Part shown: in pieces, positions 1,181 to 64,000 of the stretch
How the letters are laid out: each line of letters opens with the position of its first letter
Numbering within the stretch: position 1 is the first letter of the stretch
Assembly: GCA_009914755.4 (NCBI GenBank)
Contig: CP068257.2
Span: forward strand, 6,016,001 to 6,080,000
DNA length: 64,000 bases
Direction of reading: 5' to 3'
From: the human T2T-CHM13v2.0 reference genome, Homo sapiens
Position numbers and translations under genes: made by a program
The notes under the pieces: model-generated
The model's input: the letters and a program-made list of their open reading frames with translations, nothing else
The model's database searches: none
Told to the model about the DNA's origin: nothing

Positions 1181-1262
1181 CTTTCCACTGTATATCACTT
1201 TGTCACCCAGGCTTGAGTGCAGTGGCACTATCTCAGCTCATATTACATGTCAACTTTCCATT
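1181..1262 (-). repeat. Alu 3'-end fragment (type D landmark) in HSat3
   Basis: ccactgtatatcactttgtcacccaggcttgagtgcagtggcactatctcagctcatattacatgtcaactttccattgc. Confidence 0.75.
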
Positions 1263-7838: not shown

Positions 7839-10800
7839 ATCACCCAGGTGATAGGACTTTTGTCTAGGCTCTGCCTACGGTGGCATTGTGACATATCTCT
7901 TCACTGATCACCCAGGTGATGTAACTCTTGTGTTGGATCTGCCTAGGGGGAATCATGACATATTTCTGCACTGATCACCCAGGTGTTGGGACTCTTGTCT
8001 AGGCTCTGTATATGGGGGATTTGTGACATATCCCTGCACTGATCACCCAGGTGATGTAACGCTTGACTAGGCTGTGAATTCTGGGGCATAGTGACATCAC
8101 TACATTGATCACTGAGATGACGTAACTCTTGTCCAGGCTCTAGCTATAGAAGGCCCAGTGACATATCTCTGCACTGATCATCTACTTGATGTAACTCTTG
8201 GTTACACATTGCCTGCAGAGGCATTGTGAAATATCTCTTTACTGATCAACCAGGTGATCTAAGTCTTGTCTAGGCTCTGCCTACAGGGGGTTTTGTGGCA
8301 TAACCCTGCACTGATCACCCAGGTGATGGGACTCTTCTCTAGGCTCTGCCTATTGGGGGCATTGTCACATATTTCTGCACTGATCACCCAGGTGATGGAC
8401 TCTTGTCTTGGATCTGCCCATGGGGGCATTGTGACATATCTCTGCACTGATCACCCAGGTGATGTAACTCTAGTCTAAGCTCTGCCTAAAGTGGCATTGT
8501 GACAGATCTCTGTACTGATCACTCAGCTGATGTAACTATTGTCTAGGCTCTGCTTAAAGGGGCCTTGTCACATATGTCTACACTGATCACCCAGGTGATG
8601 TAACTGTTGTCTAGGTTCTGCTTACAGAGGATATTGTAACATATCTCTGCACTGATAACGTAAGTGATGTAATACTTGTGTAGGCTCTGCCTACAGGGGC
8701 ATTTTGACATATCTCTGCACTGTTAACCGAGGTGATGTAATTCTTCTCTAGGCTGTGCCCACAGGGGCGTTGAGACATATCTCTGCACTGATCCCAAGGT
8801 GATCCAACTGTTGTCTGGGCTCTGCCTACTGGGGGCATTGTGACATATCTCTGCACTGATCTCCCACGTGATGTAACTTTTATCTAAGCTCGGGCTACAT
8901 GGCATTGTGACATATTACTGCACTGATCACCCAGGTGATATAACCCTTGTCTAGGCTCTGCCTACAGGGGGCTTGTGACACATCTCTGCACTGATCACCC
9001 AGGTGATGTATCTCTTGTCTAGGATCCGCCTACAGGTTGCTTTGTGACATATCCCTGCAATGATCACCCAGGTGATGTACCACTTGTCAAAGCTCTGACT
9101 ACAAGGGGTTTGCTATGTATCTCTGCACTGATAATATAGGTCATGTATCTCTTGTCTAGGCTCTACCTACAGTGGCATTGTGATATATCTCTGCACTGAT
9201 CACCCAGGTGATGGAATCCTTGTCTAGGCTCTGCCAAAATGGGGCATTGTGATATAACTCTGCACTGATCACCCAGGTGATGCGACTCTTGTCTAGGCTC
9301 TGCCTACAGGAGCATTGTGACATATCTCTGCATTGATCACGCAGGTGATGTAACTCTTGTCTATATCTGCCTACTGGTGGCATTGTGGCATATTTCTGCA
9401 CTGATCACCCAGGTGATGGACTCTTGTCTTGGATCTGCCTATGGGGGCATAATGACATATCTCAGCACTGATCACTCATATGATGTAACGCTTGTCTAAG
9501 CTGCGCCAAAAGGGGAATTGTGAAAGATATCTCCACTGATCACCCAGGTGATGTAACAATTTTCTGGTATTTGTCTACAGGGTGCTTTGTGACATATCTT
9601 TGCACTGATCACCCAAGAGATGTAACACTTGTCTAGGCTCGGCCTACAGGGGCTTTGTGACATATGTCTGTACTGATCACCCAGGTGAAGTAACTCTTGT
9701 CTAGGCTCCACCTACAGGGGGTATTGTGACGTATCTCTGCACTGATCACCCAGGTGATGTAACATTTATCTAGGCTCTTCCTACAGGGGCGTTTTGACAT
9801 AGCTCTGCACAGCTCACCTAGGTTATATAACTCTTGTCCACTCTCTGCCTACAGGGGCATTGTGAAACATCTCTGCACTGATCACCCAGGTGATGCGACT
9901 CTTCTCTATACTCTGCCTAGAAGGGGTTTGTGACATACCTCTGCACTGATAACCCAGGTGATGGAAGTCTTGTCTAGGCTCTGTCTATGGGGGCATTGTG
10001 TCAAATATCTGCACTGTTCACCCAGGTGATGTACCTCTTTTCTAGGCTCTGTCTACAGGGATTTTTGTGACATATCACTGCACTGATCACCTAGGCGATA
10101 TAAGCTTTGTATGGGCTTTGCCTACAGAAGGCTTTGTGACATATCTATGCACTGATCTCTGAGGTGACGCAACTCTTGTCTAGGCACTGCCTACAGGGTA
10201 CATTGGTACATAACTCTGCACTGAGCACCCAGGTGATGGACTCTTGTCTGAGATCTGCCTACAGGGACATTGTGATACATCTCTGAACTGATCAACCAAG
10301 TGATGAAACTCATGTCTAGGCTCTGCCTACAGGGGCTTTGTGACACATCTCTACACTGATCACCCTGGGGAAGGAACTCTTGTCTATGCTCTGCCTACAG
10401 GGGACATTGTGGCATATGTCTGCACTGATAACCCAGGTGATGCAACTCTTCTCAATGCTCTGCCTACATTTGGCATTGTGACATATCTCTGCACTGATCA
10501 CCCATTTGATGTAACTCTTTTCTAGTCTCTGCCTACAGAGGGCGTTGTGACATCACTCTGCACGGATCACACGGGTTATTTAACTCTTGTCTAGGCTCTG
10601 CCTACGTGGGCATTGTGACTTATCTCTGCACTGATCACCCAAGAGATGTGTCACTTGTCTAAGCTCTGTGTAGAGGGACATTGGGACATATCTCTGCCCT
10701 GATCGCTGAGGTGATGTAAAATTTGTCTAGGCTTGCCTACAGTGGGATTTATGACGTATCTCTGCACTGATCACCCAGGTGATGTAACTCTTGTCTAGGC

Positions 10801-11689
10801 TCTGCTTACAGGGAGTATTGTGAGATATCTCTGCACTGATCACACAGGTGATGAAACTCTCGTCTAGGCTCTGCCTACAGGGGCTTTGTGACACATCTCT
10901 GCACTGATCACCCTAGGGAGTGAACTCTTGTCTACGCTCTGCCTACAGGAATCTTTATGACTTATACCTGCACTGATAACCTAGGTGATGTAACACTTGT
11001 CTAGGCTCTGCCTACACGGGAATTCTCACATATCTCTGCACTGATCACCCAGGTGATGTAACTCCTGTCTAGTTTCAACCAACGGGAGCGTTTTGACATA
11101 TCTCTGCCCTGATGACCCAGGTGATGTAACCCTTGTCTAAGCTCTGCCTACAGGGGCATTGTATCAGATCTCTCCAATGCTCACCCAGGTGATGTAACAA
11201 TTGTCTGAGCTTTGCCTACAGGGGGCTTTGTGATATACATTTCCACTGATCAAACAGGTGATGTAACCCTTGTCAAGGTTCTGCTTACAGGGGATTTGTG
11301 ACATAGCTCTGCACTGATCACCCCAGGGAGGAAACACTTGTCTGCACTCTTCCTAAAGGAGGATTTACGACTTATCCCTGCACTGATCACTAGGTGATGT
11401 AACACTTGTCTAGGCTCTGTCTACATGGGAATTTTCACATATCTCTACACTAATCCCCTAAGTGATGTAACCCTTGTCTAGGTTCAGCCTACTGGGGATT
11501 TCTGACATACCTATGCACTGATCACTGAGGTGATGTAAATCATTTCCAGGCTTTTTGTACAGGGGACCTTGTGATATATCTCTGCACTGATCACCCAAAT
11601 GATGCAAATCGTCTCTAAGCTCTGCAGGGAGGGGGCATTGTGACATACTTCTGAACCAATCATCCAGGAGATGTAAGTATACTCCAGGC
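7839..11689 (+). repeat. Beta-satellite (68-bp Sau3A family) array, block 1, about 3.85 kb
   Basis: Tandem monomers of roughly 68 bp, about ctgcactgatcacccaggtgatgtaactcttgtctaggctctgcctacagggggcattgtgacatatct, each with a GATC site. The last roughly 800 bp is the conserved tail block also seen before the other D4Z4-like units. Confidence 0.95.
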
Positions 11690-12401
11690 TTTGACTTAAG
11701 AGCATCGCAAGGTGTTGGGAGAGCCTCAGCCGGAATTTCACAGACAGACAAGGACAAAGAGAGGCCAGCGGGCTCCCTTGCACATCAGCCAGGGTGCGCA
11801 ATGAGCGCAGGTTTAGCCAGGAGGCTGGCAAAGAGAGCTAGAAGTCTGCGTTCTGCCGCCAGGCGCTCCAAGGTGGTAGCTGGGAGGCTGCAGGGGCACG
11901 GGCGGGCCGACGACGGTGGCTCAGAGGCGCAGAGGAGGTGAGCCGCCGGAGGCGTGTCAGGCCTGGACGCTGCGTGGGCCCAGTGTTTCACGGGACGGGG
12001 GTCTCCACCCTGCCCAGGGGAGGACGCATTTTCCGTGGATGGGGGGTGGGGGTGTGGGGTGTTGGTCAGGCGGGGTTGGGGTGGTGGAAAGGCATGAGAT
12101 CTCTGCCTGGGCTGCTCCCAAAGCCCAGGCGGCTACCCCACAACACGCACTTGCACAGTAGGCGGCCCACCTGCTGGTACCTGGGCTGGCTCTGGGATCC
12201 CCGGGATGCCCAGGAAAGAATGGCTGTTCTCCACTGTGTGGAGCCTCTTACTGGGCCTAGACCTAGAAGGCAGGAATCCCAGGCCGGTCAGCCCGGTTGT
12301 GGGGGCGGGGGAAGACACAACCCTCCATAACCAGCCAGGTGTTCCCTGGGAAAGAGAGGCCACCGCCCTGCCCCGACCCGACCCCGCCCCAACCCCGCGT
12401 C

Positions 12402-13841
<1,440 letters not shown>

Positions 13842-14462
13842 TCATGAATGGCGGTGAACCCTGGGAATGCCCACCCCACCCCAGAAGGGTTCCAGGGTGT
13901 CGAGGCCTGCGGCCTGGGGGTGGTGGGGGGGGAGGGCGTGGTGATGTCGCTGGTGAGGCCAGAGACACGAAGAGGAAGGGGGTGAGGGGGAAGGGGTGAG
14001 GTGGGCGCATTTCACGGGCTGGCTCTCCGGACCTCTCCAAGAATCCCACGGGAAATGGAAGCCAATCTCTGGGCTCCCACGCGTCTTCAGCAGGGAGAAA
14101 CCGGCCTGGGAGGGTGGAGGGGAGTGTAAACCTTAACCCCCGTGGGAGTCTTGAGTGTTCCAGACCCTCTCTCCGTGAAGGAGGCAGTGCCTGTGGCAGT
14201 CGCCGTTGCCAGGACAGTCTCACACACCCAGGCGTGTGGCTCTCGTTAATTTCCATGTATGAGACCAGAGTGAGACCCCAGAGAGAAGGTGCCTCCCCAG
14301 CGTGATGACCTGACGATGGATTCCCATGTGCGGCAACATGGGGAGTCTGCAGTGTGGCCGGTTTGGAAACTGGCAAGGAGAGCAAAGGCACCATTCGGGT
14401 CTTCCACCCTTCCCTGCATGTTTCCGGGTGCCCGCAGAGCTCTGGGAGCAAACAGTCAGCAT

Positions 14463-17400
14463 GACACATCTCTGAACTGATCAACAAAGTGATGTAACTC
14501 TTGTCTAGGCTCTGCCTACAGGGGCTTTGTGACATATCTCTGCACTGATCACCCAGGTGATGAGACTTTTGTCTAGGCTCTGCCTATGGGGGCATTGTGA
14601 CATATCTCTACACTGAACACCCAGGTGATGTAACTCTTGTGTTGGATCTGCCTATGGGGTCATTGTGACATATTTCTGCACTGATCACCCAGGTGACGGG
14701 ACTCTTATCTAGGCTCTGTGTATGGGGGCTTTGTGACATCTCTGCATTGATCACCCAGGTGATGTAACGCTTGACTAGGCTCTGCCTACGGTTCATAGTC
14801 ACATATCACTGCATTGATCACCGAGGTGATGTAACTCTTGTCCATGCTCTGCCTATAGGGGTCCTTGTGACATATCTCTGCACTGATGATCTACGTGATG
14901 TAACTCTTGCTTATGCTCTGCCTGCAGGGGCATTGTGAAATATCTCTGCACTGATCACCCAGGTGATGGGACTCTTCTCTAGGCTCTGCCTAATGGGGGC
15001 ATTGTCACATATTTCTGCACTGATCACCCAGGTGATGGACTCTTGTCTTGGATTTGCCTATGGGTGCATTGTGACATATCTCTGCACTGATCACCCAGTT
15101 GATGTAACTCTGGTCTAAGCTCTGCCTAAAGGGGCATTGTGACAGATCTCTGCACTAATCACTCAGGTGATGTAACTATTGTCTGGGCTCTGTTTAAAGG
15201 GGCCTTGTCACATATCTCAGCACTGACCACCCAGGTGATGTAACTCTTGTCTAGCCTCTGCTTACAGAGGTTATTGTGACATATCTCTGCACTGGTCACT
15301 TAATTGATGTAACAATTGTGTAGGCTCTGCCTACAGAGGCATTTTGACATCTCTCTGCACTGTTAACCGAGGTGATGTAACTCTTGTCTAGGCTGTGCCC
15401 ACAGGAGTATTGAGGCATATCTCTGCACTGATCCCGAGGTGATCCAACTCTTGCCTGGTCTCTGCCTACTGGGGACATTGTGACATATCGCTGCACTGAT
15501 CTGCCAAGTGTGTAACTTTAGTCTAGCCTCTGGCTACACGGCATTGTGACAGATCTCTGCACTGCTGACCCAGGTGATATAACTCTCGTCTGGGCTCTGC
15601 CTACAGGGGGCTTTTGACATATCTCTGCACTGATCTCCCAGGTGATGTAACTCTTTTCTAGGATCTGCCTACAGGGTGCTTTGTGACATATCCCTACAAT
15701 GATCACCCAGGTGAGGTACCACTTGTCAAGGCTCTGCCTACAGGGACATTGCGATGTGTCTCTGCACTGATCACCTAGGTCATGTAACTCTTGTTTAGGC
15801 TCTGCCTACAGTGGCATTGTGACATATCTCAGCACTGATCATTCAAGTGATGTAACTATTGTCTAGGATCTGCCTAACGGGATTTTGTGACATAACTCTG
15901 CACTGATCATCCAGGTGATGGGACTTTTATCTAGGCTCTGCCTAAGGGGGCATTGTGACATATATCTGCACTGATCACACAGGTGACGGGCCCTTGTCTT
16001 AGATCTGTCTATGAGGGCATAGTGACATATCTCTGCACTGATCACTCATGTGATGTAACGGTTTTTAAGCTGCGCCTAAAGGGGAATTGTGACAGATATC
16101 TCCACTGCTCACCCAGGTTATGTAACAATTTTCTGGGATTTTTCTACAGGGGGCTTTGTGACATATCTCTGCACTGATCACCCAGGTGATGTAACTCTTG
16201 TCTAGGCTCCACCTACAGGGATTATTGTGACGTATCTCTGCTCTGATCACCCAGGTGATGTAACATTTATCTAGGCTCTCCCTACAGGGGCGTTTTGACA
16301 TAGCTGTGCACAGATCAACTAAGTTATGTAACTCTTGTTCACTCTCTGCCTACAGGGGGCATTGTGAAATATCTCTGCACTGATCACCCAGGTGATGGGA
16401 CTCTTCTCTATACTCTGCCTACGGGGGATTTGTGACATATCTCTGCACTGATCACCCAGGTAATGGAAGTCTTGTCTAGGCTCTGTCTATCTTGACATTG
16501 TATCAAATATCTGCACTGATCACCCAGGTGATGTAACTCTTTCCTAGGCTCGGTCTACAGTGATTTTTTTGACATATCACTGCACTGATCGCCTAGGTGA
16601 TGTAAGCCTTGTATGGGCTTTGCCTACAGAAGGCTTTGTGACATATCTCTGCACTGATCTCTGAGGTGATGCAACTCTTGTCTAGGCACTGCCTTCAGGG
16701 TACATTGGTACATATCTCTACACTGATCACCCAGGTGATGGACTGTTGTCTTAGATCTGCCTACATGGACATTGTGACCCATCTCTGACCTGATCAACCA
16801 AGTGATGAAACTCTTGTCTAGGCTCTGCGTACAGGGGCTTTGTGACACATCTCTACACTGATCACCCTGGGGAGGAAACTCTTGGCTACGCTCTGCCTAC
16901 AGGAGGCTTTATGCCTTATACCTGCACTGATAACCTAGGTGATGTAACACTTGTCTAGACTCTGCCTTCACCGGAATTCTCACATATCTCTGCACTGATC
17001 ACACAAGTGATGTAACTCCTATCTAGGTTCAGCCTTCAGGAGCGTTTTGACATATCTCTGCACTGATCACCCAGGTGATGTAACCCTTGTCTAAGCTCTG
17101 CCTACAGGGGCATTGTGACAGATCTCTCCACTGCTCACCCAGGTGATGTAACAACTGTCTGGGCTTTGCCTACAGGGGGCTTTGTGATATACATTTCCAC
17201 TGATCAAACAGGTGATGTAACACTTGTCAAGGTTCTGCTTACAGGGGCTTTGTGACATATCTCTGCTCTGATCAACCTAGGGAGGAAACACTTGACTGCA
17301 CTCTGCATAGAGGGGACTTTACGACTTATCACTGCGCTGATTACAAGGTGATGTAACACTTGTCTAGGCTCTGTCTACACGTTAATTTTCATATATCTCT

Positions 17401-17642
17401 ACACTGATCACCTAAGTGATGTAACCCTTGTCTAGGTTCAGCCTTTTGGGGATTTCTGACATACCTATGCACAGATCACCGAGGTGATGTAAATCATTTC
17501 CAGGCTTTTTGTACAGGGGACATTGTGATATATCTCTGCACTGATCACCGAAATGATGCAAATCTTCTCTAGGCTCCGCAGGGAGGGGGCATTGTGACAT
17601 ATTTCTGAACTGATCATCCAGGAGATGTAACTATTCTCCAGG
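14463..17642 (+). repeat. Beta-satellite array, block 2, about 3.2 kb
   Basis: 68-bp monomers. Begins with the conserved head block (atgacacatctctgaactgatcaacaaagtgatgtaactcttgtctagg…) and ends with the conserved tail. Confidence 0.95.
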
Positions 17643-20425
<2,783 letters not shown>

Positions 20426-23400
20426 CACACCTCTGAACTGATCAACAAAGTGATGTAACTCTTGTCTAGGCTCTGCCTACAGGGGCTTTGTGACATATCT
20501 CTGCACTGATCACCCAGGTGATGGAACTTTTGTCTGGGCTCTGCCTATGGGGACATTGTGACATATCTCTACACTGATCACCCAGGTGATGTAACTACTG
20601 TGTTGGATCTGCCTATGGGGACATTGTGACATATTTCTTCACTGATCACCCACGTGATGGGACCCTTGTCTAGGCTCTGTGTATGGGGGCATTGTGACAT
20701 ATCTCTGCACAGATCACCCAGGTGATGTAACGCTTTACTAGCCTCTGCCTACGGGGCATAGTGACATATCACTGCATTGATCACCGAGGTGATATAACTC
20801 TTCTCTAGAATCTGACTACAGAGTGCTTTGTGACATATCCCTGCAATGATCACCCAGGTGATATACCACTTGTCAAGGCTCTGCCTACAGGGGCATTGCG
20901 ATGTATCTCTGCACTGATCACCTAGGTCATGTAACTCTTGTCTAGGCTCTGCCTACAGTGGCATTGTGACATATCTCTGCACTGATCACCCAGGTGATGT
21001 AACTCTTTTCCAGGCTCTGAGTATAGGGGGCCTTGTGACATATCTCTGCACTGATCATCTAGGTAAAGTAACTCTTGTCTACCCTCTGCCCAAAGGGGGC
21101 ATTGTGAAATATCTCTGCACTGATCACACAGGTGAAGGGACTCTTCTCTAGGCTCTGCCTACTGGGGGCATTCTCACATATTTCTGAACTGATCACCCAG
21201 GTGACGGACTCTTGTCTTGGATTTGCCTATGGGGGCATTGTGACATATCTCCGCACTGATCACCCAGGTGTTGTAACTCTGGTCTAATCTCTGACTAAAG
21301 GGGCATTGTGACAGATCTCTGCATTGATCACTCAGGTGATGTAACTATTGTCTAGGCTGTGCTTAAAGGGGCCTTGTCACATATCTCTGCACTGATCACC
21401 CAGGTGATGTAACTGTTGCCTAGGCTCTGCTTACAGGGCGTATTTTGACATATCTCTGCACTGATCACCTAAGTGATGTAACACTTGTGTAGGCTCTTCC
21501 TACAGGGGCATTTTGACATATCTCTGCACTGTTAACCGAGGTAATGTAACTCTTGTCTAGGCTGTGCCCACTGGGGGATTGACATATATCTCTGCACTGA
21601 TCCTGAAGTGATCCAACTCTTGCCTGGTCTCTGCCCACTGGGGACATTGTGACATATCTCTGCACTGATCTCCCAGGAGCTATTGCTTTATTCTAGGCTT
21701 TGGCTACACGGCACTGTCACATATCACTGCACTGATCACCCAGATGATATAACTCTTGTCTAGGCTCTGCCAACAGGGGGCTTTTGACATATCTCTGCAC
21801 TTATCACCCAGGTGATATAACTATACTCTAGGATCTGACTACAGGGTGCTTTGTGACATATCCCTGCAATGATCACCCAGGTGATATACCACTTGTCAAG
21901 GCTCTGCCTACAAGGACATTGCGATGTATCTCTGCACTGATCACCTAGGTCATGTAACTATTGTCTAGGCTCTGCCCACACTTGAATTCTCACATATGTC
22001 TGCACTGATTACCCAGTTGATGTAACTCCTGTCTAGGTTCAGCCTACAGGAGCGTTTTGACATATCTCTGCACTGATCATCCCGGTTTTGGGGCATTTTT
22101 CTAGGCTCTGCCTAAGGGGGCATTGTGACATATCTCTGCACTGATCACCCAGGTGATGTTACTGTTGTATAAGCCCTGCCTACAGGGGAATTTTGAGAGA
22201 TATCGCCACTGATCCCCCAACTGATGTAACTATTGTCTAGGCTTTGCCTACAGGGGGCTTTGTGACATAATTTTGCACTGATCACGCAGGTGATGTAACT
22301 CATCTAAGTTCTGCCTACAGGAGCTTTGTCACATATCTCTGCACTGATCACTTTGGTTATGTAACACTTTTGTAAGCACTGCCTAAAGGGAATTTTCACA
22401 AATCTCTGCACTGATCACCTAGGTGATGTAACTCTTGTCTACCATCTGCCCAAAGGGGGCATTATGAAATATCTCTGCACTGATCACTTTGGTGATGTAA
22501 CACTTTTGTAAGCACTGCCTAAAGGGAATTTTCACAAATCTCTGCACTGATCACCTAGGTGATGTAACTCTTGTCTACTATCTGCCCAAAGGGGGCATAT
22601 GAAATATCTCTGCACTGATCACCCAGTTGATTCAACTCTAGTCTAGGATCTGCCTACAGAGGTGTTTTCACATATCCTTGAAGTGATGACAAACGTGATG
22701 TAACTCATGCCTAGACTTTACCTACAGGGGACATTGTGACATATCTCTGCACTGATCACCCAGGAGATGCAACTCTTCTCTCTGCTCTGCCTACAGGGGA
22801 CATTGTGACGTATCTTTGCACTGATAAACCAGGTGGTGTAACACTGGACGAAGCTCAGCCTAAAGGGGCATTGTGAAAAATCTCTGCACTGATCACTCAG
22901 GTGATGTAACTATTGTCTAGGCTATGCTTAAAGGGGCCTTGTCACATATCTCTGCACTGATCACCCAGGTGATGTAACTCTTGTCTAGGCTCTGCTTACA
23001 GGATGTATTGTGACATATCTCTGCAATGATCACCTAAGTGATGTAACACTTGTGTAGGCTCTGCCTACAGGGACATTTTGACATATCTCTGCAGTGTTAA
23101 CCGAGGTGATGTAACCCTTCTCTAGGTTGTGTCCACAGGGGGATTGAGGCATATCTCTGCACTGATTCCTAGGTGATCCAACACTTGCCTGGTATCTGCC
23201 TACTGGGGACATTGTGATATCTCTCTGCACTGATCTCTCAGGTGTTGTAACTTTAGTCTAGGCTCTGCCTACAGGGCATTGTGACATATCACTGCACTTA
23301 TCACCCAGGTGATATAACTCTTGGTTAGGCTCTGCCTACAGTGGCATTGTGACATATCTCTGCACTGATCATCCAGGTGATGTAACTCTTTTCTAGGATC

Positions 23401-26400: not shown

Positions 26401-27290
26401 GATCTGCCTACATGGACATTGTGACACATCTCTGAACTGATCAACCAAGTGATGAAACTCTTGTCTAGTTTCTGCCTACAGGGGCTTTGTGACACATCTC
26501 TGCACTGATCACCCTGGGGAGGGAACTTTTGTCTACGCTCTGCCTACAGGAGGCTTTATGACTTATGCCTGCACTGATAACCTAGGTGATGTAACACTTG
26601 TCTAGGCTCTGACTACATGGGAATTCTCACATATCTCTGCACTGATCACCCGGGTGATGTAACTCCTGTCTAGGTTCAGCCTACAGGAGCGTTTGGACAT
26701 ATCTCTGCACTGATCACCCAGGTGATGTAACCCTTGTCTAAGCTCTGCCTACAGGGTCATTGTGACAGATCTCTCCACTGCTCACCCAGGTGATGTAACA
26801 ATTGTCCAGGCTTGCCCTACAGGGGCCTTTGTGATATACATTTGCACTGATCAAACAGGTGATGTAACCCTTGTCAAGGTTCTGCTTACAGGGGCTTTGT
26901 GACATATCTCTGCACTGAACACCCCAGGGAGGAAACACTTGTCTACACTCTGCCTATAGGAGGCTTTATGACTTATCCCTTCACTGATCCCTAGGTGATG
27001 TAACACTTGTCTAGGCTCTGTCTACACGGGAATTTTCACATACCTCTACACTGATAACCTAAGTGATGTAACCCTTGTCTAGGTTCAGCCTACTGGGGAT
27101 TTCTGACATACCTATGCACTGATCCCCGAGGTGATGTAAATCATTTCCAGGCTTTTTGTACAGGGGACATTGTGATATATCTCTGCACTGATCACCCAAA
27201 TGATGCAAATCTTCTCTAGGCTCCACAGGAAGGGGGCATTGTGACATATTTCTGAACTGATCATCCAGGAGATGTAACTATTCTCCAGGC
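20426..27290 (+). repeat. Beta-satellite array, block 3, about 6.9 kb
   Basis: 68-bp monomers; head at 20,426-21,950, tail at about 26,500-27,290. Contains a near-identical 2-monomer tandem duplication at 22,340-22,612. Confidence 0.95.
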
Positions 27291-28000: not shown

Positions 28001-29305
<1,305 letters not shown>

Positions 29306-29401
29306 TCAGAGAGAGTCCGGTAGGCTCCCGTGCACCTCAGCTGGACTGTGCACTGCGGCAAGTGCAGCCAGGAGACCAGCCGGGACAACAAGCCAGCAGT
29401 T

Positions 29402-29410
29402 CTTATAAAG
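29402..29410 (-). promoter_or_regulatory. TATAA-type box upstream of the DUX4-like ATG, unit 3
   Basis: Plus strand tcttataaaggtctgcagg at the homologous position. Confidence 0.3.
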
Positions 29411-38874: not shown

Positions 38875-40281
<1,407 letters not shown>

Positions 40282-42924: not shown

Positions 42925-44360
<1,436 letters not shown>

Positions 44361-44988
44361 TCATGAATGGCGGGGAGCCCTGGGACAGCCCGCCCCACCA
44401 CGGAAGGGTCCCAAGGCGTTGAGGCCAGCGGCAGAGTGGTTGTGGGGTTGGGGCATAGGGCGTGGTGATGGCGGTGGTTGTGCCGGAGAGACGAAGAAGA
44501 AGGTGGCGAGGGGGAAGTGGTAAGGGGGGCGCGTTTTGGGGGTTGGCTCTCCGGACCTCTCCAGGAATCCCGCGGGAAGTGGAAGCCACTTTCTGGACTC
44601 CCACGCGACTTCAGCAGGGAGAAACCGGCCTGGGAGGGTGGAGGGGAATGTGGAACTGAACCTCCGTGGGAGTATTGAGAGTTCCAGGCCCTCTTTCCGT
44701 GAAGGAGGCAGTGCCTGTGGGTGTCGCCATTGCCGGGACAGTCTCACACACGCAGGCGTGTGGCTCCCGTTCATTTCCACTTAGGAGAACAGAGCGAGAA
44801 CCCAGAGAGAAGATGCCTCCCAGGGGTGATGGCTTGACGATGGATTCCCGTGTGCGGCAACATGGGGAGTCTGCAGTGTGGCCGGTTTGGAAACTGGCAA
44901 GGAGAGCGAAGGCACCATGCCGGTCTTCCACCCTTCCCTGTATGTTTCCGGGTGACCGAAGAGCTCCTGGAGCTAACAGTCACCATGA

Positions 44989-47900: not shown

Positions 47901-48520
47901 ATAGGGGGCATTGTGAAATATCTCTGCACCGATCACCCAGGTGATGGGACTCTTCTCTATACTCTACCTAGAGGGGGATTTGTGACATATCTCTGCACTG
48001 ATCACACAGGTGACGGAAGTCTTTTCTAGGCTCTGTGTATGGGGGAATTGTGTCAAATATCTGCAATGACCACCCAGGTGATGTAACTCTTTTCTAGGCT
48101 CTGTCTATGGGGATTTTTGTGACATATCACTGCACTGATCACCTATGTGATGTAAGCCTTTTATGAACTTTGCCTACAGAAGGCTTTGTGACATATCTAT
48201 GCACTGATCTCTGAGGTGATGCAAGTCTTGTCTAGGCACTGCCTACAGGGGACATTGGTACATATCTCTGTACTGATCACCCAGGTGATGGAATGTTGTC
48301 TTAGATCTGCCTACATGGACATTGTGACAAATCTCTGAACTTATCAACCAAGTGATGAAAGTCTTGCCTAGGTTCTGCCTAGGGGGGCTTTGTGACACAT
48401 TTCTGCACTGATCACCCTGGAGAGGAAACTCTTGTCTACACTCTGCATACAGGAGGCTTTATGACTTATACCTGCACTGATAACCTAGGTGATGTAACAC
48501 TTGTCTAGGCTTTGCCTACG
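44989..48520 (+). repeat. Beta-satellite array, block 6, about 3.5 kb, truncated by the inversion breakpoint
   Basis: 68-bp monomers with head at 44,989 onward. Only the first roughly 120 bp of the conserved tail (caccctggagaggaaactcttgtctacactctgcatacaggaggctttatgacttatacctgcactgataacctaggtgatgtaacacttgtctaggctttgcctacg) is present before an abrupt switch to GC-rich D4Z4 sequence at 48,521. Confidence 0.9.
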
Positions 48521-55668
<7,148 letters not shown>

Positions 55669-57712
55669 CTGGAGAATAGTTACATCTTCCTGGATGATCA
55701 GTTCAGAAATATGTCACAATGCCCCCTCCCTGCGGAGCCTAGAGAAGATTTGCATCATTTGGGTGATCAGTGCAGAGATTTATCACAATGTCCCCTGTAC
55801 AAAATGCCTGGGAATGATTTACATCACCTCGGTGATCAGTGCATAGGTATGTCAGAAATCCCCAGTAGGCTGAACCTAGACAAGGGTTACATCACTTAGG
55901 TTATCAGTGTAGAGATATGTGAAAATTCCCGTGTAGACAGAGCCTAGACAGGTGTTACACCACCTAGGGATCAGTGCCGGGATATGTCATAAAGCCTCCT
56001 GTAGGCAGAGTGTAGACAAGTGTTTCCTCCCTGGGGTGATCAGTGCAGAGATATGTCACAAAGCCCCTATAAGCAGAACTTTGACAAGGGTTACATCACC
56101 TGTTTGATCAGTGGAAATGTATATCACAAAGACCCCTGTAGGCAAAGCCCAGACAATTGTTACATCACCTGGGTGAGCAGTGGAGAGATATGTCACAATG
56201 CCCCTGTAGGCAGAGCTTAGACAAGGGTTACATCACCTGGATGATCAGTGCAGAGATATGTCAAAACGCTCCTGTAGGCTGAACCTAGACAGGAGTTACA
56301 TCACCCAGGTTATCAGTGCAGAGATATGTGAGAATTCCAGTGTAGGCAGAGCCTAGACAAGTGTTATATCACCTAGGTTATCAGTGCAGGTATAAGTCAT
56401 AAAGCCTCTTGTAGGCAGAGTGTAAACCAGAGTTCCCTCCCCAGGGTGATCAGAGCAGAGATGTGTCACAAAGCCCCTGTAGGCAGAGCCTAGACAAGAG
56501 TTTCATCACTCAGTTGATCAGTTCAGAGATGTGTCACAATGTCCATGTAGGCAGATCTAAGACAAGTGTCCATAACATGGGTGATCTGAGCAGAGATATG
56601 TACCAATGTCCCCTGCAGCCAGTGCCTAGACAAGAGTTGCATCACCTCAGAGATCAGTGCATAGATATGTCACAAAGCCTTCTATAGGTAAAGCTCATAC
56701 AAGGCTTACATCACCTGGGTGATCAGTGCAGAGATATTTCACAATGTCCCCTGTAGGCAGAGAGTGGAAAAGAGTTAGATAACCTAGGTGATCTTTGCAG
56801 GGCTATGTCAAAACGCCCCTGTAGGCAGAGCCTAGATAAATATTACATCACCTGGGTGATCAGTGCAGAGATAGGTTCCAATACCCCATGTAGGTGGAGC
56901 CTAGACAAGAGTTACATCACCTGGGTGATCAGTGCAGAGATATGTCACAAAGCCCCTGTAGGCCGAGCCTAGACAAGCGTTACATCACGTGGGTGATCAG
57001 TGCAGAGATATCTCACAATATCCCCTGTAAGCAGAGTCTAGACCAGAGTTACATCACGTGGGTGATCAGTGTAGAGATGTGTCATAAATCCCACTGTATG
57101 CAAACCCTAGACAAGTTTTACATCACCTCAGCGATCAGTGCAGAGATATGTCCCAGTGTCCCTCTTGGCAGAGCTTAGACAAGAGTCACATCTCCTGGGT
57201 GATCAGTCCAGAGATAAGTCACAATGCCCCCATAGACAGGCCTAGACAAGAGTTATATAACCCGAGTGATCCTCAGTGCAGAGATATGTCACTATGCCCC
57301 CATAGGCAGATCCAAGACAAGAGTCCATCACCTGGGTGCTCACTGCAGAAATATGCCACAATGCTGCCATTGGGCAGATATAGACAAGAGTTACATCACC
57401 TGCGTGATCACTGCAGAGATATGTCACAATGCCCCTGTAGGCAGAGCCTAGACAAGTGTCCCATCACCTGGGTGATCAGTGCAGAGTTATGTCACAATGC
57501 CCCCTTTTGGCAGAGCCTAGACAAGGTTTACATCACCTGGGTGATCAGTGCAGAGATGTGTCACAAGCCCCCTGTAGCCAGAGACTAGACAAGTGTTACA
57601 TCAGCTGTGTGATCAGTGCAGTGACATGTCACAGTGCCCCTGTAGCCATATCCTTGACAAAAGTGACATCACTTGGGTGATCAGTGCGCAGATATGTCAC
57701 AATGTCTTCAGT
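55669..57712 (-). repeat. Beta-satellite array, block 8, inverted orientation, about 2.0 kb
   Basis: Starts with the pLAM-like degenerate monomers and reverse-complemented tail after plus-strand unit 7. Ends at 57,712 in middle-type monomers, joined directly to forward-orientation beta-satellite. Confidence 0.93.
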
Positions 57713-58093
57713 AGGCACTGATCACCCCAGGGAGGAAACACTTTTCTACGCTCTGCCTACAGGAGTCTTTACGACTTATCCCTGAACTGATCACTAGGTG
57801 ATGTAACACTTGTCTAGGCTCTGTCTACACGGGAATTTTCACATACCTCTGCACTGATAACCTAAGTGATGTAACCCTTGTCTAGGTTCAGCCTACTGGG
57901 GATTTCTGACACACGTATGCACTGATCAGCGAGGTGACATAAATCATTTCCAGGCTTTTTTTGCAGGTGATATTGTGAAATATCTCTGCACTGATCACCC
58001 AAATGATGCAAATCTTCTCTGGGCTCCGCAGGGAGGGGCATTGTGACATATTTCTGAACTGATCATCCAGGAGATGTAACTATTCTGCAGGCT
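57713..58093 (+). repeat. Beta-satellite, block 9, forward orientation, 0.38 kb (distal part of the conserved tail only)
   Basis: ctgatcaccccagggaggaaacacttttctacgctctgcctacagg… matches tail offset about 430 to the end and runs into D4Z4-like unit 8. Confidence 0.9.
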
Positions 58094-58806
58094 GTGACTA
58101 AAGAGCGTCGGAAGGTGTTGGGAGAGCCTCAGCCGGAATTTCACGGACGGACAAGGGCACAGAGAGGCCAGCGGGCTCCCTTGCACGTCAGCCGGGGTGT
58201 GCAATGAGCGCAGGTCTAGCCAGGAGGTCGGCAAAGAGAACTAGAGGTCTGCGTTCTACCGCCAGGTGCTCCATGGTGGCAGCTGGGAGGCTGCAGGGTC
58301 ATAGGCGGGCTGGCGACGGTGGCACGGAGGCGCAGAGGAGGCTAGCTGCCGGAGGGGTGTCATGCCTGGACGTTGAGCAGGCCCAGTGTTTCGTGGGATG
58401 GGGGTCTCCACCCAGCCCAGGGGAGGACGCATTTTCCGCGGGTGGGTGCTGGGCGTGTGGAGGGGCTGGTCAGGCGGGGGTGGGGTGGAGGAAAGAGAGG
58501 AGAGCTCTGTACGGGCTACTCCCACAGCCCAGGCGGCTGCCCACAAACCCGTGCGTGCATAGTTGGTGGCCCACCTGCTGGTACCTGGGCCGGCTCTGGG
58601 GTCCCCGCGATGCCCAGGAAAGAATGGCAGTTCTCCAATCTGTGGAGTCTCTCACCAGGCTTAGACCTAGAAGGCAGGAATCCCAGGCCTGTCAGCCCGC
58701 TGGAGGGGGCGGGGGAAAGACACGCCCCTTCATAGCCAGCCAGGTGTTCCCCGCGAAATGGAGGCCACCGCCCTGTCCCGACCCAACACCTTTCCAACCC
58801 AGCGAC

Positions 58807-60241
<1,435 letters not shown>

Positions 60242-60866
60242 TCATGAATGGCGGTGAGCCCTGGGACAGTCCGCCCAAACTTGGAAGGGTCCCAGGGCGT
60301 CGAGGCCTGCGGCCGGGTTGTGGTGGGGTTGGTGGGGAGGGCGTGGTGATGGTGGTGGTGGGGCCGGAAAGACGAAGAGTAAGGGGGCGAGGGCGAACGG
60401 GTGAGGGGGGCGCGTTTCAGGGGCTGGCTCTCCAGACCACACCAGGAAACCCGTGGGAACTGGAAGCCGCTTTCTGGGCTCCCACGCATCATCAGCAGGG
60501 AGAAACCGGCCTGGGAGGGTGGAGGGGAGTGTGGAACTGAACCTCCGTGGGAGTCTTGAGTGTTCCAGGCCCTGTCTCCATGAAGTAGTCAGTGCCTGTG
60601 GGTGTCGCCATTGCCAGGACAGTCTCACAAGCGCAGATGTGTGACTCTCGTTCATTTCCACATAGGAGACCAGACCGAGACCCCAGAGAGAAGATGCCTC
60701 CCAGGCCTGATGGCCTGACGATGGTTTCCCGTGTGCAGCAACATGGGAAGTCTGCAGTGTGTCCGGTTTGGAAACTGGCAGGGACAGCGAAGGCACCATG
60801 ACGGTCTTCTACCCTTCCCTGCATGTTTCCAGGTGCCTGCAGAGCTCCGGGAGCAAACAGTCAGCA

Positions 60867-63800
60867 TGACACATCTCTGAAGTGATCAACAAAGTGATGT
60901 AACCCTTGTCTAGGCTCTGCCTACAGGGGCTTTGTGACATAACTCTGCAAGGATCATACAGGTGATGGGGCTTTTGTCTAGGCTCTGACTAAGGGGGCAT
61001 TGTGACATATTTCTGCACTGATCACCCAGGTGACGGACTCTTGTCTTGGATCTGCCTATGGGGACCTTGGGTCATATCTCTGCACTGATAACCCAGGAGA
61101 TGTAACTGTTGTATAAGCTCTGCCTACAGGGGAATTGTGAGAGATCTCGCCACTGATCACCCAAGTGATGTAACTATTGTCTAGGCTTTGCCTACAGGGG
61201 GCTTTGTGAAATAAATTTGCACTGATCACCCAGGTGACGTAACTCATCTAAGTTCTGCTACAGGAGCTTTGTGACATATCTCTGCACTGATCATTTAGGT
61301 GATGTAACACTTTTATAAGCACTGCCTACAGGGAATTTTGAAAAGTCTGCACACTGATCACCTAGGTGATGTAACTCTTGTCTACCCTCTGCCCAAAGGG
61401 CGCATTGTGAAATATCTCTGCACTGATCACCCTGGTGATTCAACTCTTGTCTAGGATCTGCCTAAGGGGGTATTGTGAAATATCTCTGCACTGATCAACT
61501 AGGGGATGTAACTCTTGTCTAGGCTCTGCCTGCAGGGCCGTTTTCACATATCCCTGAACTGATGACAAAGGTGATGTAACTCTTGCCTAGGCTTTGCCCA
61601 CAGGGGACATTGTGACATATCTCTGCACTGATCACCCAGGTGATGTAATTCTTCTCTATGCTCTGCCTACAGTGGATATTGTGACATATCTCTACACTGA
61701 TCACCCAGGTAATGCAACTCTTCTCTATGCTCTGCCTACAGGGGGCATGGTGAAATATCTCTGCACTGATCACCCAGGTGATGTAACTGTTTCCTAGTCT
61801 CTGCCTACAGAGGTTGTTGTAACATCAGTCTGCACGGATCACCCGGGTTATGTAACTATTGTCTAGGCCCTGTGTATTGGGGCATTGTGACTTATCTCTG
61901 CACTGACCACCCAGGAGATGTGACTCTTGTCTAAGCTCTGCCTAGAGGGACATCTGGACATGTCTCTGCACTGATGGCTGAGGTGAAGTAAAAATTGTCT
62001 AGGCTTCGCCTACAGTGGGATTTATGACATATACCTGCACTGATCACCCAGGTGATATAACTCTTGTCTAGGCTCTGCTTACAGGGGGTATTGTGAGATA
62101 TCTCTGCACTGATCACCCAGGTGATGTAACTCTTGTCTAGGCTCTGCCTACAGGAGCATGTTAACAGATCACTGCACTGGTCACCGAGATGATGTAACTC
62201 TTTTGTAGGCTTCGCCGACAGGGGGCATTGAGACATATCTGTGCACTGGTCCCCCCCCGAGGTGACGTAAATCTTGTCTGGGGTCTGCTTACAGGGGGCA
62301 TTGTGACATATCCCTGCCCTGATCACCCAGGTGATGTAACACTTGTCTAGGCTGTGACCACAGAGGGATTGAGATATATCTCTGCACTGATCCCGAGGTG
62401 ATACAACTCTTGCCTTATCTCTGCCTACTGGGGACATTGTGACATAACTCTGCACTGATCTCCCAGGTTCAGTAACTTTAGTCTATGCTCTGGCTACAAG
62501 GCATCATGACAAATCACTGCACTGATCACCCAGGTGATATAACTCTTGTCTATGCTCTGCCTACAGGGGGCCTGTGAAATATTTCTGCACTGATCACCCA
62601 GGTGATATAATTCTTCTTTAGGATCTGACTACAGGGTGCTTTGAGACATATCTCTACAATGATCACCCAGGCGATATACCACTTGTCAAGGCTCTGCCTA
62701 CAGGGGCATTGCGATGTATCTCTGCACTGATCACCTAGGTCATGTAACTGTTGTCTAGGCTCTGGCTACAGTGGCATTGTGACATATTTCTGCACTGATC
62801 ACCCAGGTGATGTAACGCTTGTCTAGGATCTGCCTAAAGTCACTTTGTGACATATACCTGCATTGATCATCCATGTGATGGGGCTGTTGTATAGGCTCTG
62901 CCTAAGGGGGCATTGTGACATATTTCTGCACTGACCACCCAGGTGATGGACTCTTTTCTTGGATCTGCCTATGGGGGCATTTTGACATATCTCTGCACTG
63001 ATCACCCAGGTGATGTAACTGTTGTAGAAGCTCTGCCTACAGGGGAATTGTGAGAGATCTCGCCACTGATCACCCAAGTGATGTAAATATTGTCTAGGCT
63101 TTGCCTACAGGGGGCTTTGTGACATACCTTTGCACTGATCACCCAGGTGATGTAACTCATCTAAGTTCTGCTACAGGAGCTTTGTGACATATCTCTTCAC
63201 TGATCACTTAGGTGATGTTACACTTTTATAAGCACTGCTTACAGGGAATTTCGACAAATCTCGGCACTGATCACGTAGGTGATGTAACTCTGGTCTACCC
63301 TCTGCCCAAAGGGGGCATTGTGAAATATCTCTGCATTGATCACCCAGGTGACTCAACTCTTGTCTAGTATCTGCCTACAGGGGATATTGTGAAATATCTC
63401 TGCACTGATCAACTGGGTGATGTAACTCTTGTCAAGGCTCTGCCTACCAGGGCGTTTTCACATATCCCTGAACCGATGACAAAGGTGATGTTACTCTTGC
63501 CTAGGCTTTGACTACAGGGGACATTGTGACACATCTCTGAACTGATCAACCAAGTGATGAAACTCTTTTCTAGGCTCTGCCTACAGGGGCTTTGTGACAC
63601 ATCTCTGCACTGATCACCCTGGGGAGGGAACTCTTGTCTACGCTCTGCCTACAGGAGGCTTTATGACTTATACCTGCACTGATAACCTAGTTGATGTAAC
63701 AATTGTCTAGGCTCTACCTACACGGGAATTCTCCCATATCTCTGCACTGATCACCCAGGTGATGTAACTCCTCTCTAGGTTCAGCCTTCAGGAGAGTTTT

Positions 63801-64000
63801 GACATATCTCTGCACTGATAACCCAGGTGATGTAACACTTGTCTAAGCTCTGCCTACAGGGGCATTGTGACAGATCTCGCCACGGCTCACCAAGGTGATG
63901 TAACAATTGTGTGGGCTTTGCCTTCAGGGGGCTTTGTGATATAGATTTCCACTGATCAAAGAGGTGATGTAACTCTTGTCAAGGTTCTGCTTAAAGGGGC
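60867..64000 (+). repeat. Beta-satellite array, block 10, over 3.1 kb, continues past the window end
   Basis: 68-bp monomers. Head at 60,867 onward; conserved tail begins about 63,590, implying another D4Z4-like unit shortly beyond 64,000. Confidence 0.93.

What the first reader, a model, noticed from the sequence alone, without database searches (positions are those of the whole stretch)
7839..64000. The repeating element is a multi-kb super-repeat: conserved beta-satellite tail (about 0.8 kb), D4Z4-like unit (2.77 kb), conserved head (about 1.4 kb), then a variable beta-satellite middle
The beta-satellite monomers immediately flanking every D4Z4-like unit are not random. The same roughly 12-monomer tail (…caccctggggagggaactc… to …gatgcaaatcttctctaggctc.gcagggagggggcattgtgacatatttctgaactgatcatccaggagatgtaactattctccaggctttgactaaagag) precedes units 1, 2, 3, 4 and 5, and a truncated form precedes unit 8. 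The same roughly 20-monomer head (atgacacatctctgaactgatcaacaaagtgatgtaactc… to …gggactcttgtctagg…) follows each unit. Between them the middle beta-satellite varies from about 0 to 6 kb. Unit-to-unit spacing is 5.95, 9.65, 10.86 and 4.06 kb. The array therefore grew by unequal exchange within the beta-satellite middle, not by duplication of isolated D4Z4 copies.
Basis: seen in the sequence. Interest (0 to 1): 0.5.

Follow-up and report, generated by a model that had tools for sequence, protein, structure and literature searches.

The report
Known LSau–beta-satellite composite repeat array
This is a diverged copy of the well-known human-type heterochromatin array in which decayed DUX4/D4Z4 units sit at a fixed place in a long ordered series of 68-bp beta-satellite monomers; the super-repeat is real but ordinary, and the whole spacer is conserved, not only its ends.

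Summary
The super-repeat is real. Seven full 2.76-kb GC-rich units and one 430-bp fragment interrupt 539 beta-satellite monomers between 7834 and 64000. All seven units share base-identical junctions. The 12-13 monomers before each unit are 92.5% identical position for position, against 72-76% for other monomer pairs.

Two points in the finding need correcting:
- **The "variable middle" is not anonymous satellite.** 453 of 539 monomers fit one ordered series of about 72 monomer types. 357 of 399 neighbouring typed pairs follow that order (shuffles: mean 10). Middle positions are as conserved (0.90) as head (0.88) and tail (0.91). Spacer length varies through whole-monomer deletions and duplications of this one template.
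- **The ~20-monomer head is not unbroken after every unit.** It runs uninterrupted after only two of the seven units.

The same order appears in 120 independent human-derived contigs. The unit is a 5'-truncated D4Z4, a partial D4Z4 and a pLAM-like end, with broken DUX4 reading frames and CpG decay. A 9.2-kb segment (48525-57705) is inverted.

This matches the published LSAU-BSAT or "beta-composite" arrays of T2T-CHM13: 80-95% identity within an array, many inversions, about 5.4% CpG. Verdict: already known, low interest.

The parts
7834..11700 (+). Beta-satellite spacer B0 (57 monomers), starting at the junction with the (ATTCC)n satellite. Canonical positions C2-20, C43-60, C31-38, C61-72.
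10821..11700 (+). Tail before U1. It holds C61-C72; the C60 slot is occupied by another monomer type.
11701..14461 (+). Unit U1 (2761 bp): 5'-truncated D4Z4, partial D4Z4 and pLAM-like end. The DUX4 remnant is on the minus strand.
14462..17655 (+). Spacer B1 (47 monomers): C1-22, C46-48, C51-72. Head 14462-15955, tail 16775-17655.
17656..20422 (+). Unit U2 (2767 bp).
20423..27303 (+). Spacer B2 (101 monomers): the canonical order with an internal duplication of about 25 monomers (roughly C10 to C32, twice). Tail 26422-27303.
27304..30061 (+). Unit U3 (2758 bp).
30062..38163 (+). Spacer B3 (119 monomers). The head series occurs three times (monomers 1-20, 26-38, 55-63). Tail 37283-38163.
33606..33943 (+). 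Junction inside B3 reading C59, a type-01-like monomer, one untyped monomer, then C2 and C3. A tail and a unit are expected here and are absent.
38164..40658 (+). Unit U4 (2495 bp), with a 267-bp internal deletion at U1 coordinates 1668-1934.
40659..42218 (+). Spacer B4 (23 monomers): a scrambled short head, then C59-72.
42219..44985 (+). Unit U5 (2767 bp).
44986..48524 (+). Spacer B5 (52 monomers): C1-11, C14-18, C26-48, C50-62. It ends at the left inversion junction.
48525..57705 (-). Inverted segment of about 9.2 kb. It holds the unit fragment, spacer B6, U7 and spacer B7. The junctions are at 48524/48525 and 57700-57711.
48525..48954 (-). 430-bp internal unit fragment (U1 coordinates 1316-1745) covering the second DUX4 homeobox region. 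It lacks the normal junction with the satellite on both sides.
48955..52892 (-). Spacer B6 (58 monomers), the head side of U7. It runs from C1 to C66 with three small gaps.
52893..55653 (-). Unit U7 (2761 bp), inverted. The DUX4 remnant is on the plus strand.
55654..57700 (-). Spacer B7 (30 monomers), the tail side of U7. The complete 13-monomer tail is at 55654-56536.
57711..58104 (+). Truncated tail before U8 (6 monomers, C67-72).
58105..60866 (+). Unit U8 (2762 bp).
60867..64000 (+). Spacer B9 (46 monomers, cut by the window end): C1, then a jump to C22-39, C13-31 and C60-66.

Best explanation
The region is a diverged tandem array of the LSau-beta-satellite composite repeat of human-type pericentromeric or acrocentric heterochromatin.

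**Structure.** One repeat is a single piece of about 7.7 kb. It consists of an ordered series of about 72 distinct 68-bp beta-satellite monomers (about 4.9 kb) followed by a 2.76-kb unit. On the opposite strand, the unit is the distal end of a 4qA-type D4Z4 array. That end comprises about 800 bp of upstream sequence, the DUX4 reading frame, the KpnI boundary, about 470 bp of the next repeat, and a pLAM-like end that runs into the last 'tail' monomer.

**History.**
- Shown: the unit-satellite junctions arose once, and the whole composite was then amplified as one piece.
- Shown: the copies then diverged by about 8-14%, with heavy CpG decay in the GC-rich unit.
- Inferred: out-of-register homologous exchange or replication slippage between similar monomers then deleted and duplicated whole-monomer blocks. 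This produced spacers of 23 to 119 monomers.
- Inferred: the last 6-7 tail monomers are the least like other monomers, which would give them little homology for misaligned exchange. This may explain why they are always intact here.
- Shown: a later complex rearrangement inverted about 9.2 kb.

The array has no demonstrated function. The DUX4 frames are broken.
For: **Satellite and units**
- 68-bp period and clean segmentation into 539 monomers.
- Seven units and one fragment, all with identical junctions.

**Identity of the unit**
- The unit consensus encodes the DUX4 N-terminus on the minus strand, 150/152 residues identical to PDB 5z6z, with two Pfam homeodomains.
- Published DUX4 primers from PMC2965761 map onto the unit consensus:
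  - the ATG primer at 1942-1971;
  - the stop-codon primer at 703-738;
  - the KpnI primer exactly at 471-501;
  - the exon 3/pLAM primers on the last tail monomer (32 of 39 columns identical).

**Ordered template**
- No short-lag periodicity in the satellite.
- 357 of 399 adjacent typed pairs follow one 72-position order, against a shuffle mean of 10.3 and maximum of 22. 453 of 539 monomers are placed, with 41 order breaks.
- Within-position identity is 0.883 in the head, 0.896 in the middle and 0.913 in the tail.
- Independent check: in 120 metagenome contigs carrying human DNA, 1342 of 1482 adjacent pairs follow the window-derived order. Long runs read C30 to C72, then the unit, then C1 onward. 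None of these contigs is more than 95% identical to the window.

**Co-divergence and CpG decay**
- Units are 85.8% identical overall, 90.6% at non-CpG columns and 68% at CpG columns.
- At 238 inferred ancestral CpG sites, 28% are now TG or CA. CpG density is 5.2-6.0%.

**Tail divergence**
- Tail monomers C66-C72 are 0.65-0.74 identical to other positions, against about 0.76-0.78 elsewhere.

**Literature**
- Beta-composite arrays with interspersed LSau, and more than 200 inversion breakpoints in beta-satellite arrays.
- LSAU-BETA composite with 80-95% identity within arrays in centromere transition regions.
- 319 copies of a 5'-truncated D4Z4-pLAM in LSAU-BSAT regions, with about 5.4% CpG and high methylation.
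Against: - No copy in the window carries the complete 72-monomer series, so the canonical template is a reconstruction. The external contigs suggest small differences from it: an extra 37-like monomer after C39, and repeated C32 and C51.
- The external contigs are short-read assemblies of repeats and may be collapsed or chimeric. They were also selected by the tail-unit junction.
- Unequal exchange is inferred only from in-register breakpoints. Replication slippage or gene conversion with indels would leave the same trace.
- Chromosome and species of origin were not determined.
- The inversion does not fit a simple two-break inversion of a canonical array.
Confidence: 0.88

Rival explanations
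1. One reading: a super-repeat with conserved tail and head, separated by a non-homologous variable stretch of generic beta satellite. The array grew by unequal exchange confined to that middle.
For: Tail and proximal head are conserved, and spacer length varies between 1.56 and 8.1 kb. Simple position-by-position identity decays beyond about 13 monomers upstream and about 10 downstream.
Against: The decay reflects whole-monomer register shifts. Once monomer gaps are allowed, homology at about 0.90 spans whole spacers. Middle positions C23-59 have 4-10 copies each at 0.896 within-position identity. Order breaks also occur within the head. External contigs show the same middle order.
Confidence: 0.06
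2. D4Z4-like units inserted independently, several times, into a pre-existing beta-satellite higher-order repeat at a preferred site.
For: None specific. It would also place units at a constant position in the monomer order.
Against: The junctions are identical at both ends in all seven units, with the same 5' truncation point. At non-CpG sites, units and flanks show similar divergence. In the window C72 is always followed by a unit, and the head C1 is always preceded by one.
Confidence: 0.01
3. The high identity of the flanks is caused by local gene conversion or homogenisation spreading out from the units. It is not due to common descent of the whole spacer.
For: The tail has the highest within-position identity (0.913).
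Against: The difference from the middle (0.896) and the head (0.883) is small, and there is no gradient with distance from the unit. Pairwise identities are star-like, with no tracts of near-identity.
Confidence: 0.03
4. The variable spacers and the inverted segment are assembly artefacts of a repetitive region.
For: The inversion junctions are non-canonical: a unit fragment without normal junctions at 48525-48954, and a 12-bp filler at 57700-57711. No reads are available to check them.
Against: Copies differ by 8-14%, which is ample for unambiguous long-read assembly. Published complete assemblies report more than 200 inversion breakpoints in such arrays. Independent contigs show comparable spacer variants.
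Confidence: 0.04

Closest known systems
LSAU-BSAT (LSAU-BETA) composite repeat, also called beta-composite arrays, of T2T-CHM13 (Hoyt et al., bioRxiv 10.1101/2021.07.12.451456; Altemose et al., bioRxiv 10.1101/2021.07.12.452052; earlier Agresti 1989 and Meneveri 1993 as cited there)
   Same: 68-bp beta satellite interspersed with single LSau/D4Z4-like units in tandem. Identity within the array is 86-92%, inside the reported 80-95% for centromere transition regions. Strand inversions are present. The array lies next to another pericentromeric satellite. The unit is the 5'-truncated D4Z4-pLAM form with about 5.4% CpG.
   Different: Nothing in kind. The explicit 72-position monomer order, and the reading of spacers as deletion or duplication derivatives of it, was worked out here. 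I did not find it stated in the papers I could read, but their supplementary figures were not available.
Distal end of the 4qA/10q D4Z4 array (D4Z4, partial D4Z4, pLAM, then 6.2 kb of beta satellite; FSHD locus)
   Same: The parts follow in the same order on the DUX4 sense strand. Published DUX4 ATG, stop, KpnI and exon 3 primers all map in the expected order, and the exon 3/pLAM primers fall on the first satellite monomer after the unit.
   Different: Here there is one 5'-truncated unit per repeat, not a head-to-tail 3.3-kb array. The DUX4 frames are broken. Copies are about 86% identical to each other. From my recollection of the 4qA sequence, the position of the ATTAAA poly(A) signal reads as ordinary satellite sequence here; this was not tested against a reference.
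Beta-satellite higher-order repeats (pB3 on chromosome 9, pB4 on acrocentrics; Waye and Willard 1989, as summarised in PMC8125562)
   Same: Diverged 68-bp monomers (about 76% identical) arranged in a fixed multimeric order that repeats as a block.
   Different: The period here is far longer (about 72 monomers), includes a non-satellite 2.76-kb element, and is heavily remodelled.
Alpha-satellite higher-order repeat arrays
   Same: The same logic applies: position-specific monomer types, and structural variants that differ by whole monomers through out-of-register exchange.
   Different: Unrelated sequence family. There is no evidence of centromere function, and the copies are much less homogenised.

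Membership tests
LSau-beta-satellite composite (LSAU-BSAT / beta-composite array) | Tandem monomers of about 68 bp of the Sau3A/beta-satellite type | tested here: met
   TRF gives period 68 across 7837-64000. 539 monomers, 506 of them 67-69 bp. The consensus carries GATC. No reference beta-satellite sequence was available for direct comparison; the assignment rests on the period, the literature description and linkage to D4Z4.
LSau-beta-satellite composite (LSAU-BSAT / beta-composite array) | Interspersed GC-rich LSau/D4Z4-like elements related to DUX4 | tested here: met
   Seven 2.5-2.77-kb units at about 65% GC. The consensus encodes the DUX4 N-terminus, 150/152 identical to PDB 5z6z, with two homeodomains. 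Published DUX4 primers map in order.
LSau-beta-satellite composite (LSAU-BSAT / beta-composite array) | Unit and satellite repeat together as one composite in tandem | tested here: met
   Identical junctions, conserved monomer order around and between units, and the same order in external contigs.
LSau-beta-satellite composite (LSAU-BSAT / beta-composite array) | Identity of 80-95% within arrays in centromere transition regions; frequent inversions | tested here: met
   Units 85-87.5% identical and same-position monomers 0.88-0.91. One inverted 9.2-kb segment. Compared.
LSau-beta-satellite composite (LSAU-BSAT / beta-composite array) | Location on acrocentric short arms, the chromosome 1 pericentromere or other listed sites | not testable with these tools
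   No primate genome is searchable here. The adjoining (ATTCC)n satellite at 641-7622 is consistent with a pericentromeric or acrocentric setting.
LSau-beta-satellite composite (LSAU-BSAT / beta-composite array) | Dense CpG methylation | not testable with these tools
   Indirect evidence only. 28% of inferred ancestral CpGs are now TG or CA, and CpG observed/expected is 0.51-0.57, as expected for germline-methylated DNA.
D4Z4 macrosatellite proper (4q35/10q26 type) | 3.3-kb KpnI units directly head to tail | tested here: not met
   Units are 2.76 kb and start about 800 bp upstream of the DUX4 ATG. They are separated by 1.6-8.1 kb of satellite.
D4Z4 macrosatellite proper (4q35/10q26 type) | Intact DUX4 open reading frame (424 codons) | tested here: not met
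   The longest open stretch holding a homeobox motif in any unit is 262 codons. Even the majority consensus stays open for only about 240 codons from the ATG.
Beta-satellite higher-order repeat | Position-specific monomer types recurring in a fixed order, with between-copy identity well above between-monomer identity | tested here: met
   0.88-0.91 within a position against 0.73-0.77 between positions. 357 of 399 ordered adjacencies, against a maximum of 22 in shuffles.

The most novel reading that the evidence does not exclude
The LSau-beta-satellite composite may be, family-wide, a single very long higher-order repeat of about 72 position-specific monomers with the D4Z4-pLAM unit fixed between positions 72 and 1.

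All known spacer-length variants would then be deletion or duplication derivatives of it. These include the 26-monomer (C1-7 | C54-72) and 7-monomer (C1 | C67-72) forms seen in external contigs.

Breakpoints would be governed by inter-monomer similarity. The type-01 monomers that bracket the tail plus the unit could act as direct repeats for gain or loss of units.

Separately, copies of this family diverge with an unusual transversion-rich spectrum (Ts/Tv about 0.6, with G>T and C>A as frequent as transitions). This could mark a mutational process specific to heterochromatin.
Probability: 0.2. Interest if true: 0.4.

Novelty: already known. Interest (0 to 1): 0.2.

Why it matters
These arrays hold most of the DUX4-like copies in a human genome, and they produce off-target signals in FSHD assays. 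A position-by-position monomer map would give a coordinate system for comparing arrays between chromosomes and between people, and for locating exchange and inversion breakpoints. It would also trace how the 4qA D4Z4-pLAM-satellite end relates to the dispersed copies. For this window it adds no new kind of element.

Tried and rejected
- **Plain position-by-position comparison of flanks.** It understated the homology because whole-monomer indels shift the register. I replaced it with monomer-level gapped alignment and typing.
- **Short-lag higher-order periodicity.** TRF reported periods of 137 and 273. The lag profile is flat at 0.75-0.77 for lags 1-24, so there is no dimer or tetramer repeat.
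- **Tree congruence between tail, unit thirds and head**, intended as a test of co-amplification. It was uninformative because the pairwise identities are star-like and uncorrelated. I used junction identity and matched non-CpG divergence instead.
- **A simple two-break inversion model for 48525-57705.** Re-inverting the segment gives non-canonical adjacencies (C62 next to C41, and a unit fragment next to C67). The rearrangement is therefore complex and remains unresolved.
- **Bacterial and archaeal genome contigs.** Only one 247-bp hit, a human contaminant in a Streptomyces assembly.
- **Cas9 guide sequences for pLAM in the supplements of PMC10620044.** No supplementary files are held. I used the published DUX4 primers instead.
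- **Chromosome and species assignment.** Not possible, because no primate genome collection is available. No external contig exceeds 95% identity to the window.
- **The worry that the transversion-rich spectrum meant an artificial sequence.** Rejected, because independent human-derived contigs show the same spectrum.
Full report
**Layout of the window**

Bases 641-7622 are an (ATTCC)n-type satellite. From 7834 to the end of the window the sequence is a 68-bp tandem repeat, interrupted by GC-rich blocks.

An nhmmer scan with the 68-bp consensus cut the satellite into 539 monomers, of which 506 are 67-69 bp long. The gaps in that monomer map define the units:

| Unit | Coordinates | Note |
|---|---|---|
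| U1 | 11701-14461 | |
| U2 | 17656-20422 | |
| U3 | 27304-30061 | |
| U4 | 38164-40658 | 2495 bp, internal 267-bp deletion |
| U5 | 42219-44985 | |
| fragment | 48525-48954 | 430 bp, inverted, internal piece of a unit |
| U7 | 52893-55653 | inverted |
| U8 | 58105-60866 | |

The satellite changes strand at 48524/48525 and again at 57700-57711, so about 9.2 kb is inverted.

**Checking the observation**

Any two monomers in the window are on average 0.758 identical, with a 99th percentile of 0.899.

- **Tail.** The 13 monomers before U1-U5 and U7 are 0.925 identical when compared position for position. Different positions within the same tails give 0.718. U8 keeps six of these monomers because the inversion junction cuts its tail.
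- **Junctions.** The two unit-satellite junctions are the same to the base in all seven units.

The head is less uniform than claimed. It runs unbroken for 20-22 monomers only after U1 and U3. It runs 5, 11 and 10 monomers after U2, U5 and U7. It is scrambled after U4, and only one monomer remains after U8.

**The middle is also conserved**

The satellite has no short-period higher-order structure. Identity is flat at 0.75-0.77 for lags of 1 to 24 monomers.

When whole-monomer gaps are allowed, the spacers align to each other over 45-54 monomers at about 0.90 identity. Many diagonal runs of 5-16 monomers at 0.90-0.95 link the middles of different spacers.

Average-linkage clustering at 0.12 distance gave 70 recurrent monomer types. 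Written as strings of types, the ten satellite blocks are all versions of one series of 72 positions, C1 to C72, with the unit between C72 and C1.

- 357 of 399 neighbouring typed pairs follow that order. Shuffling within blocks gives a mean of 10.3 and a maximum of 22.
- 453 of 539 monomers sit at a matching position.
- There are 41 breaks in order.
- Within-position identity is 0.883 for the head (C1-22), 0.896 for the middle (C23-59) and 0.913 for the tail (C60-72). Each position has 4 to 10 copies.

The middle is therefore variable in length only. The long spacers are duplications. B2 repeats a block of about 25 monomers. B3 carries the head series three times. The short spacers are deletions; B1, for example, lacks C23-45, and B4 jumps from C8 to C59.

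All of these changes are in monomer register. The shortest monomers lie at block ends, and the few other odd-length ones differ by only a few bases.

**Independent check with other sequences**

The tail-unit junction (39 nt, with four degenerate positions) was searched in two collections.

- The bacterial and archaeal genome collection gave one 247-bp contaminant contig.
- The metagenome contigs gave at least 120 hits, mostly from human-associated samples.

After the same segmentation, each external monomer was labelled by its best match among the window monomers. 1342 of 1482 adjacent pairs then follow the window-derived order. Long runs read C30 to C72, then a 2.72-2.77-kb gap, then C1, C2 and so on.

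- 18 of 31 contigs with enough upstream sequence have the complete C60-C72 tail.
- 7 of 12 with enough downstream sequence start C1-C7.
- Recurrent derivatives include C1-7 joined to C54-72 (a 4548-bp period in L034) and a 7-monomer spacer of C1 joined to C67-72.

None of these contigs is more than 95% identical to the window (median 90.9%). They are therefore paralogous copies, and the order is a property of the family, not of this locus.

Two caveats apply. These are short-read assemblies of repeats, and they were selected by the junction itself.

**What the unit is**

The majority consensus of the seven units encodes the DUX4 N-terminus on the strand opposite to the satellite orientation used here. 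It matches PDB 5z6z at 150 of 152 residues and has two Pfam homeodomains.

Published DUX4 primers (PMC2965761) map onto the unit consensus in the expected order:

| Primer | Position on unit consensus | Match |
|---|---|---|
| ATG primer | 1942-1971 | 28/30 |
| Stop-codon primer | 703-738 | 35/36 |
| KpnI-boundary primer | 471-501 | 31/31 |
| Exon 3/pLAM reverse primers | last tail monomer | 32 of 39 columns |

Read in the DUX4 sense, each unit is therefore a 5'-truncated D4Z4 starting about 800 bp before the ATG. It continues through the reading frame, the KpnI boundary and about 470 bp of the next repeat, to a pLAM-like end that continues into the satellite.

This is the form reported as the commonest D4Z4-related sequence of T2T-CHM13: a 5'-truncated D4Z4-pLAM with 319 copies, located in LSAU-BSAT regions.

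No unit here keeps an intact frame. The longest open stretch containing a homeobox motif is 262 codons.

**Divergence**

- Units are 85.8% identical on average, with no clear grouping.
- At columns that are never CpG they are 90.6% identical. At CpG columns they are 68% identical.
- Of 238 inferred ancestral CpG sites, 59% remain CG and 28% are now TG or CA.
- CpG density is 5.2-6.0%, matching the roughly 5.4% reported for divergent, highly methylated D4Z4 copies.

Once CpG decay is set aside, the units are about as diverged as the satellite positions around them. Together with the identical junctions, this shows that unit and spacer were copied as one piece.

**Mechanism**

Shown:
- a single origin of the junctions;
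- co-divergence of unit and spacer;
- one ordered template;
- in-register deletions and duplications;
- an inverted segment.

Inferred:
- The remodelling arose by out-of-register homologous exchange or replication slippage between similar monomers.
- The last tail monomers escape it because they are the least similar to other positions: 0.65-0.74 for C66-C72, against about 0.76-0.78 elsewhere.
- The junction at 33606-33943 in B3 reads C59, a type-01-like monomer, one extra monomer, then C2. It may mark the loss of a tail plus a unit by exchange between the two type-01 monomers (C60 and C1) that bracket them.

The inversion cannot be explained by two simple breaks in a canonical array. Re-inverting it places C62 next to C41, and a unit fragment next to C67.

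**Comparison with what is known**

- Beta satellite interspersed with single or double D4Z4/LSau repeats on acrocentric short arms has been described since 1989-1993.
- T2T-CHM13 papers call these beta-composite arrays or LSAU-BETA/LSAU-BSAT composites found on 16 chromosomes.
- Identity within arrays is reported as 80-95% in centromere transition regions.
- More than 200 inversion breakpoints are reported in the beta-satellite arrays of chromosome 1 and the acrocentrics.

Every feature of this window fits that description. It is not a D4Z4 macrosatellite in the strict sense, because the units are not 3.3 kb, not head to tail, and not intact.

I did not find the explicit 72-position monomer map in the papers I could read, and their supplementary figures were not available. 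I therefore treat the map as detail added to a known class, not as a discovery.

**Verdict**

It is wrong that only the ends are conserved and that exchange is confined to the middle.
- Novelty: already known.
- Interest: 0.2.

Noticed in passing
window 11701-60866 (units) and all satellite blocks; external loci L002-L121: Differences among copies are rich in transversions. At non-CpG columns, Ts/Tv is 0.58 in the units and 0.65 in same-position monomers, and G>T and C>A are as frequent as G>A and C>T. Independent human-derived contigs give 0.66. CpG columns of the units give 2.18. This is far from the usual germline ratio and is unexplained. Possible causes are a mutational bias specific to heterochromatin, or an effect of old paralogous variation.
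   Followed up: partly
window 641-7836: The (ATTCC)n satellite carries at least 17 Alu-like fragments (...TCTCACTCTGTCACCCAGGCT...). All are in one orientation, at irregular spacings of roughly 190-1400 bp. The switch to beta satellite at about 7815-7840 happens at one such fragment, where ...tctgtcac... runs into ...gatcacccaggtgat.
   Followed up: partly
L001 (NZ_JAHHIT010000841.1, 247 bp): A contig in a Streptomyces hilarionis genome assembly consists of the tail monomers plus the start of the D4Z4-like unit. It is almost certainly human DNA contamination in a bacterial assembly.
   Followed up: no
L008, L096, L098, L107; L034, L038: External contigs show recurrent short forms of the composite. 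In one, units are separated by only 7 monomers (C1 then C67-72). In the other, a 26-monomer spacer (C1-7 then C54-72) gives a 4548-bp period. These are probably the homogeneous large arrays and the 'double D4Z4' arrangements mentioned in the literature.
   Followed up: partly
window 48525-48954 and 57700-57711: The left inversion junction carries a 430-bp internal piece of a unit (second DUX4 homeobox region) with no normal unit-satellite junction on either side. The right junction has 12 bp of filler between head-to-head monomers. This suggests a complex, possibly template-switching, rearrangement rather than a simple inversion.
   Followed up: partly
window, last tail monomer before each unit (e.g. 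27242-27303): On the DUX4 sense strand, the monomer after the unit aligns with DUX4 exon 3/pLAM primers. From my recollection of the 4qA sequence, the position of the ATTAAA poly(A) signal reads GTCACA-like ordinary satellite sequence here, so these copies would lack the permissive signal. This was not checked against a reference sequence.
   Followed up: no
canonical positions C1 and C60 (e.g. 14462-14529 and 16775-16842): The same monomer type (type 01) occurs both immediately after each unit and as the first monomer of the 13-monomer tail. The tail plus the unit are therefore bracketed by direct repeats. This may ease the loss or gain of units.
   Followed up: partly
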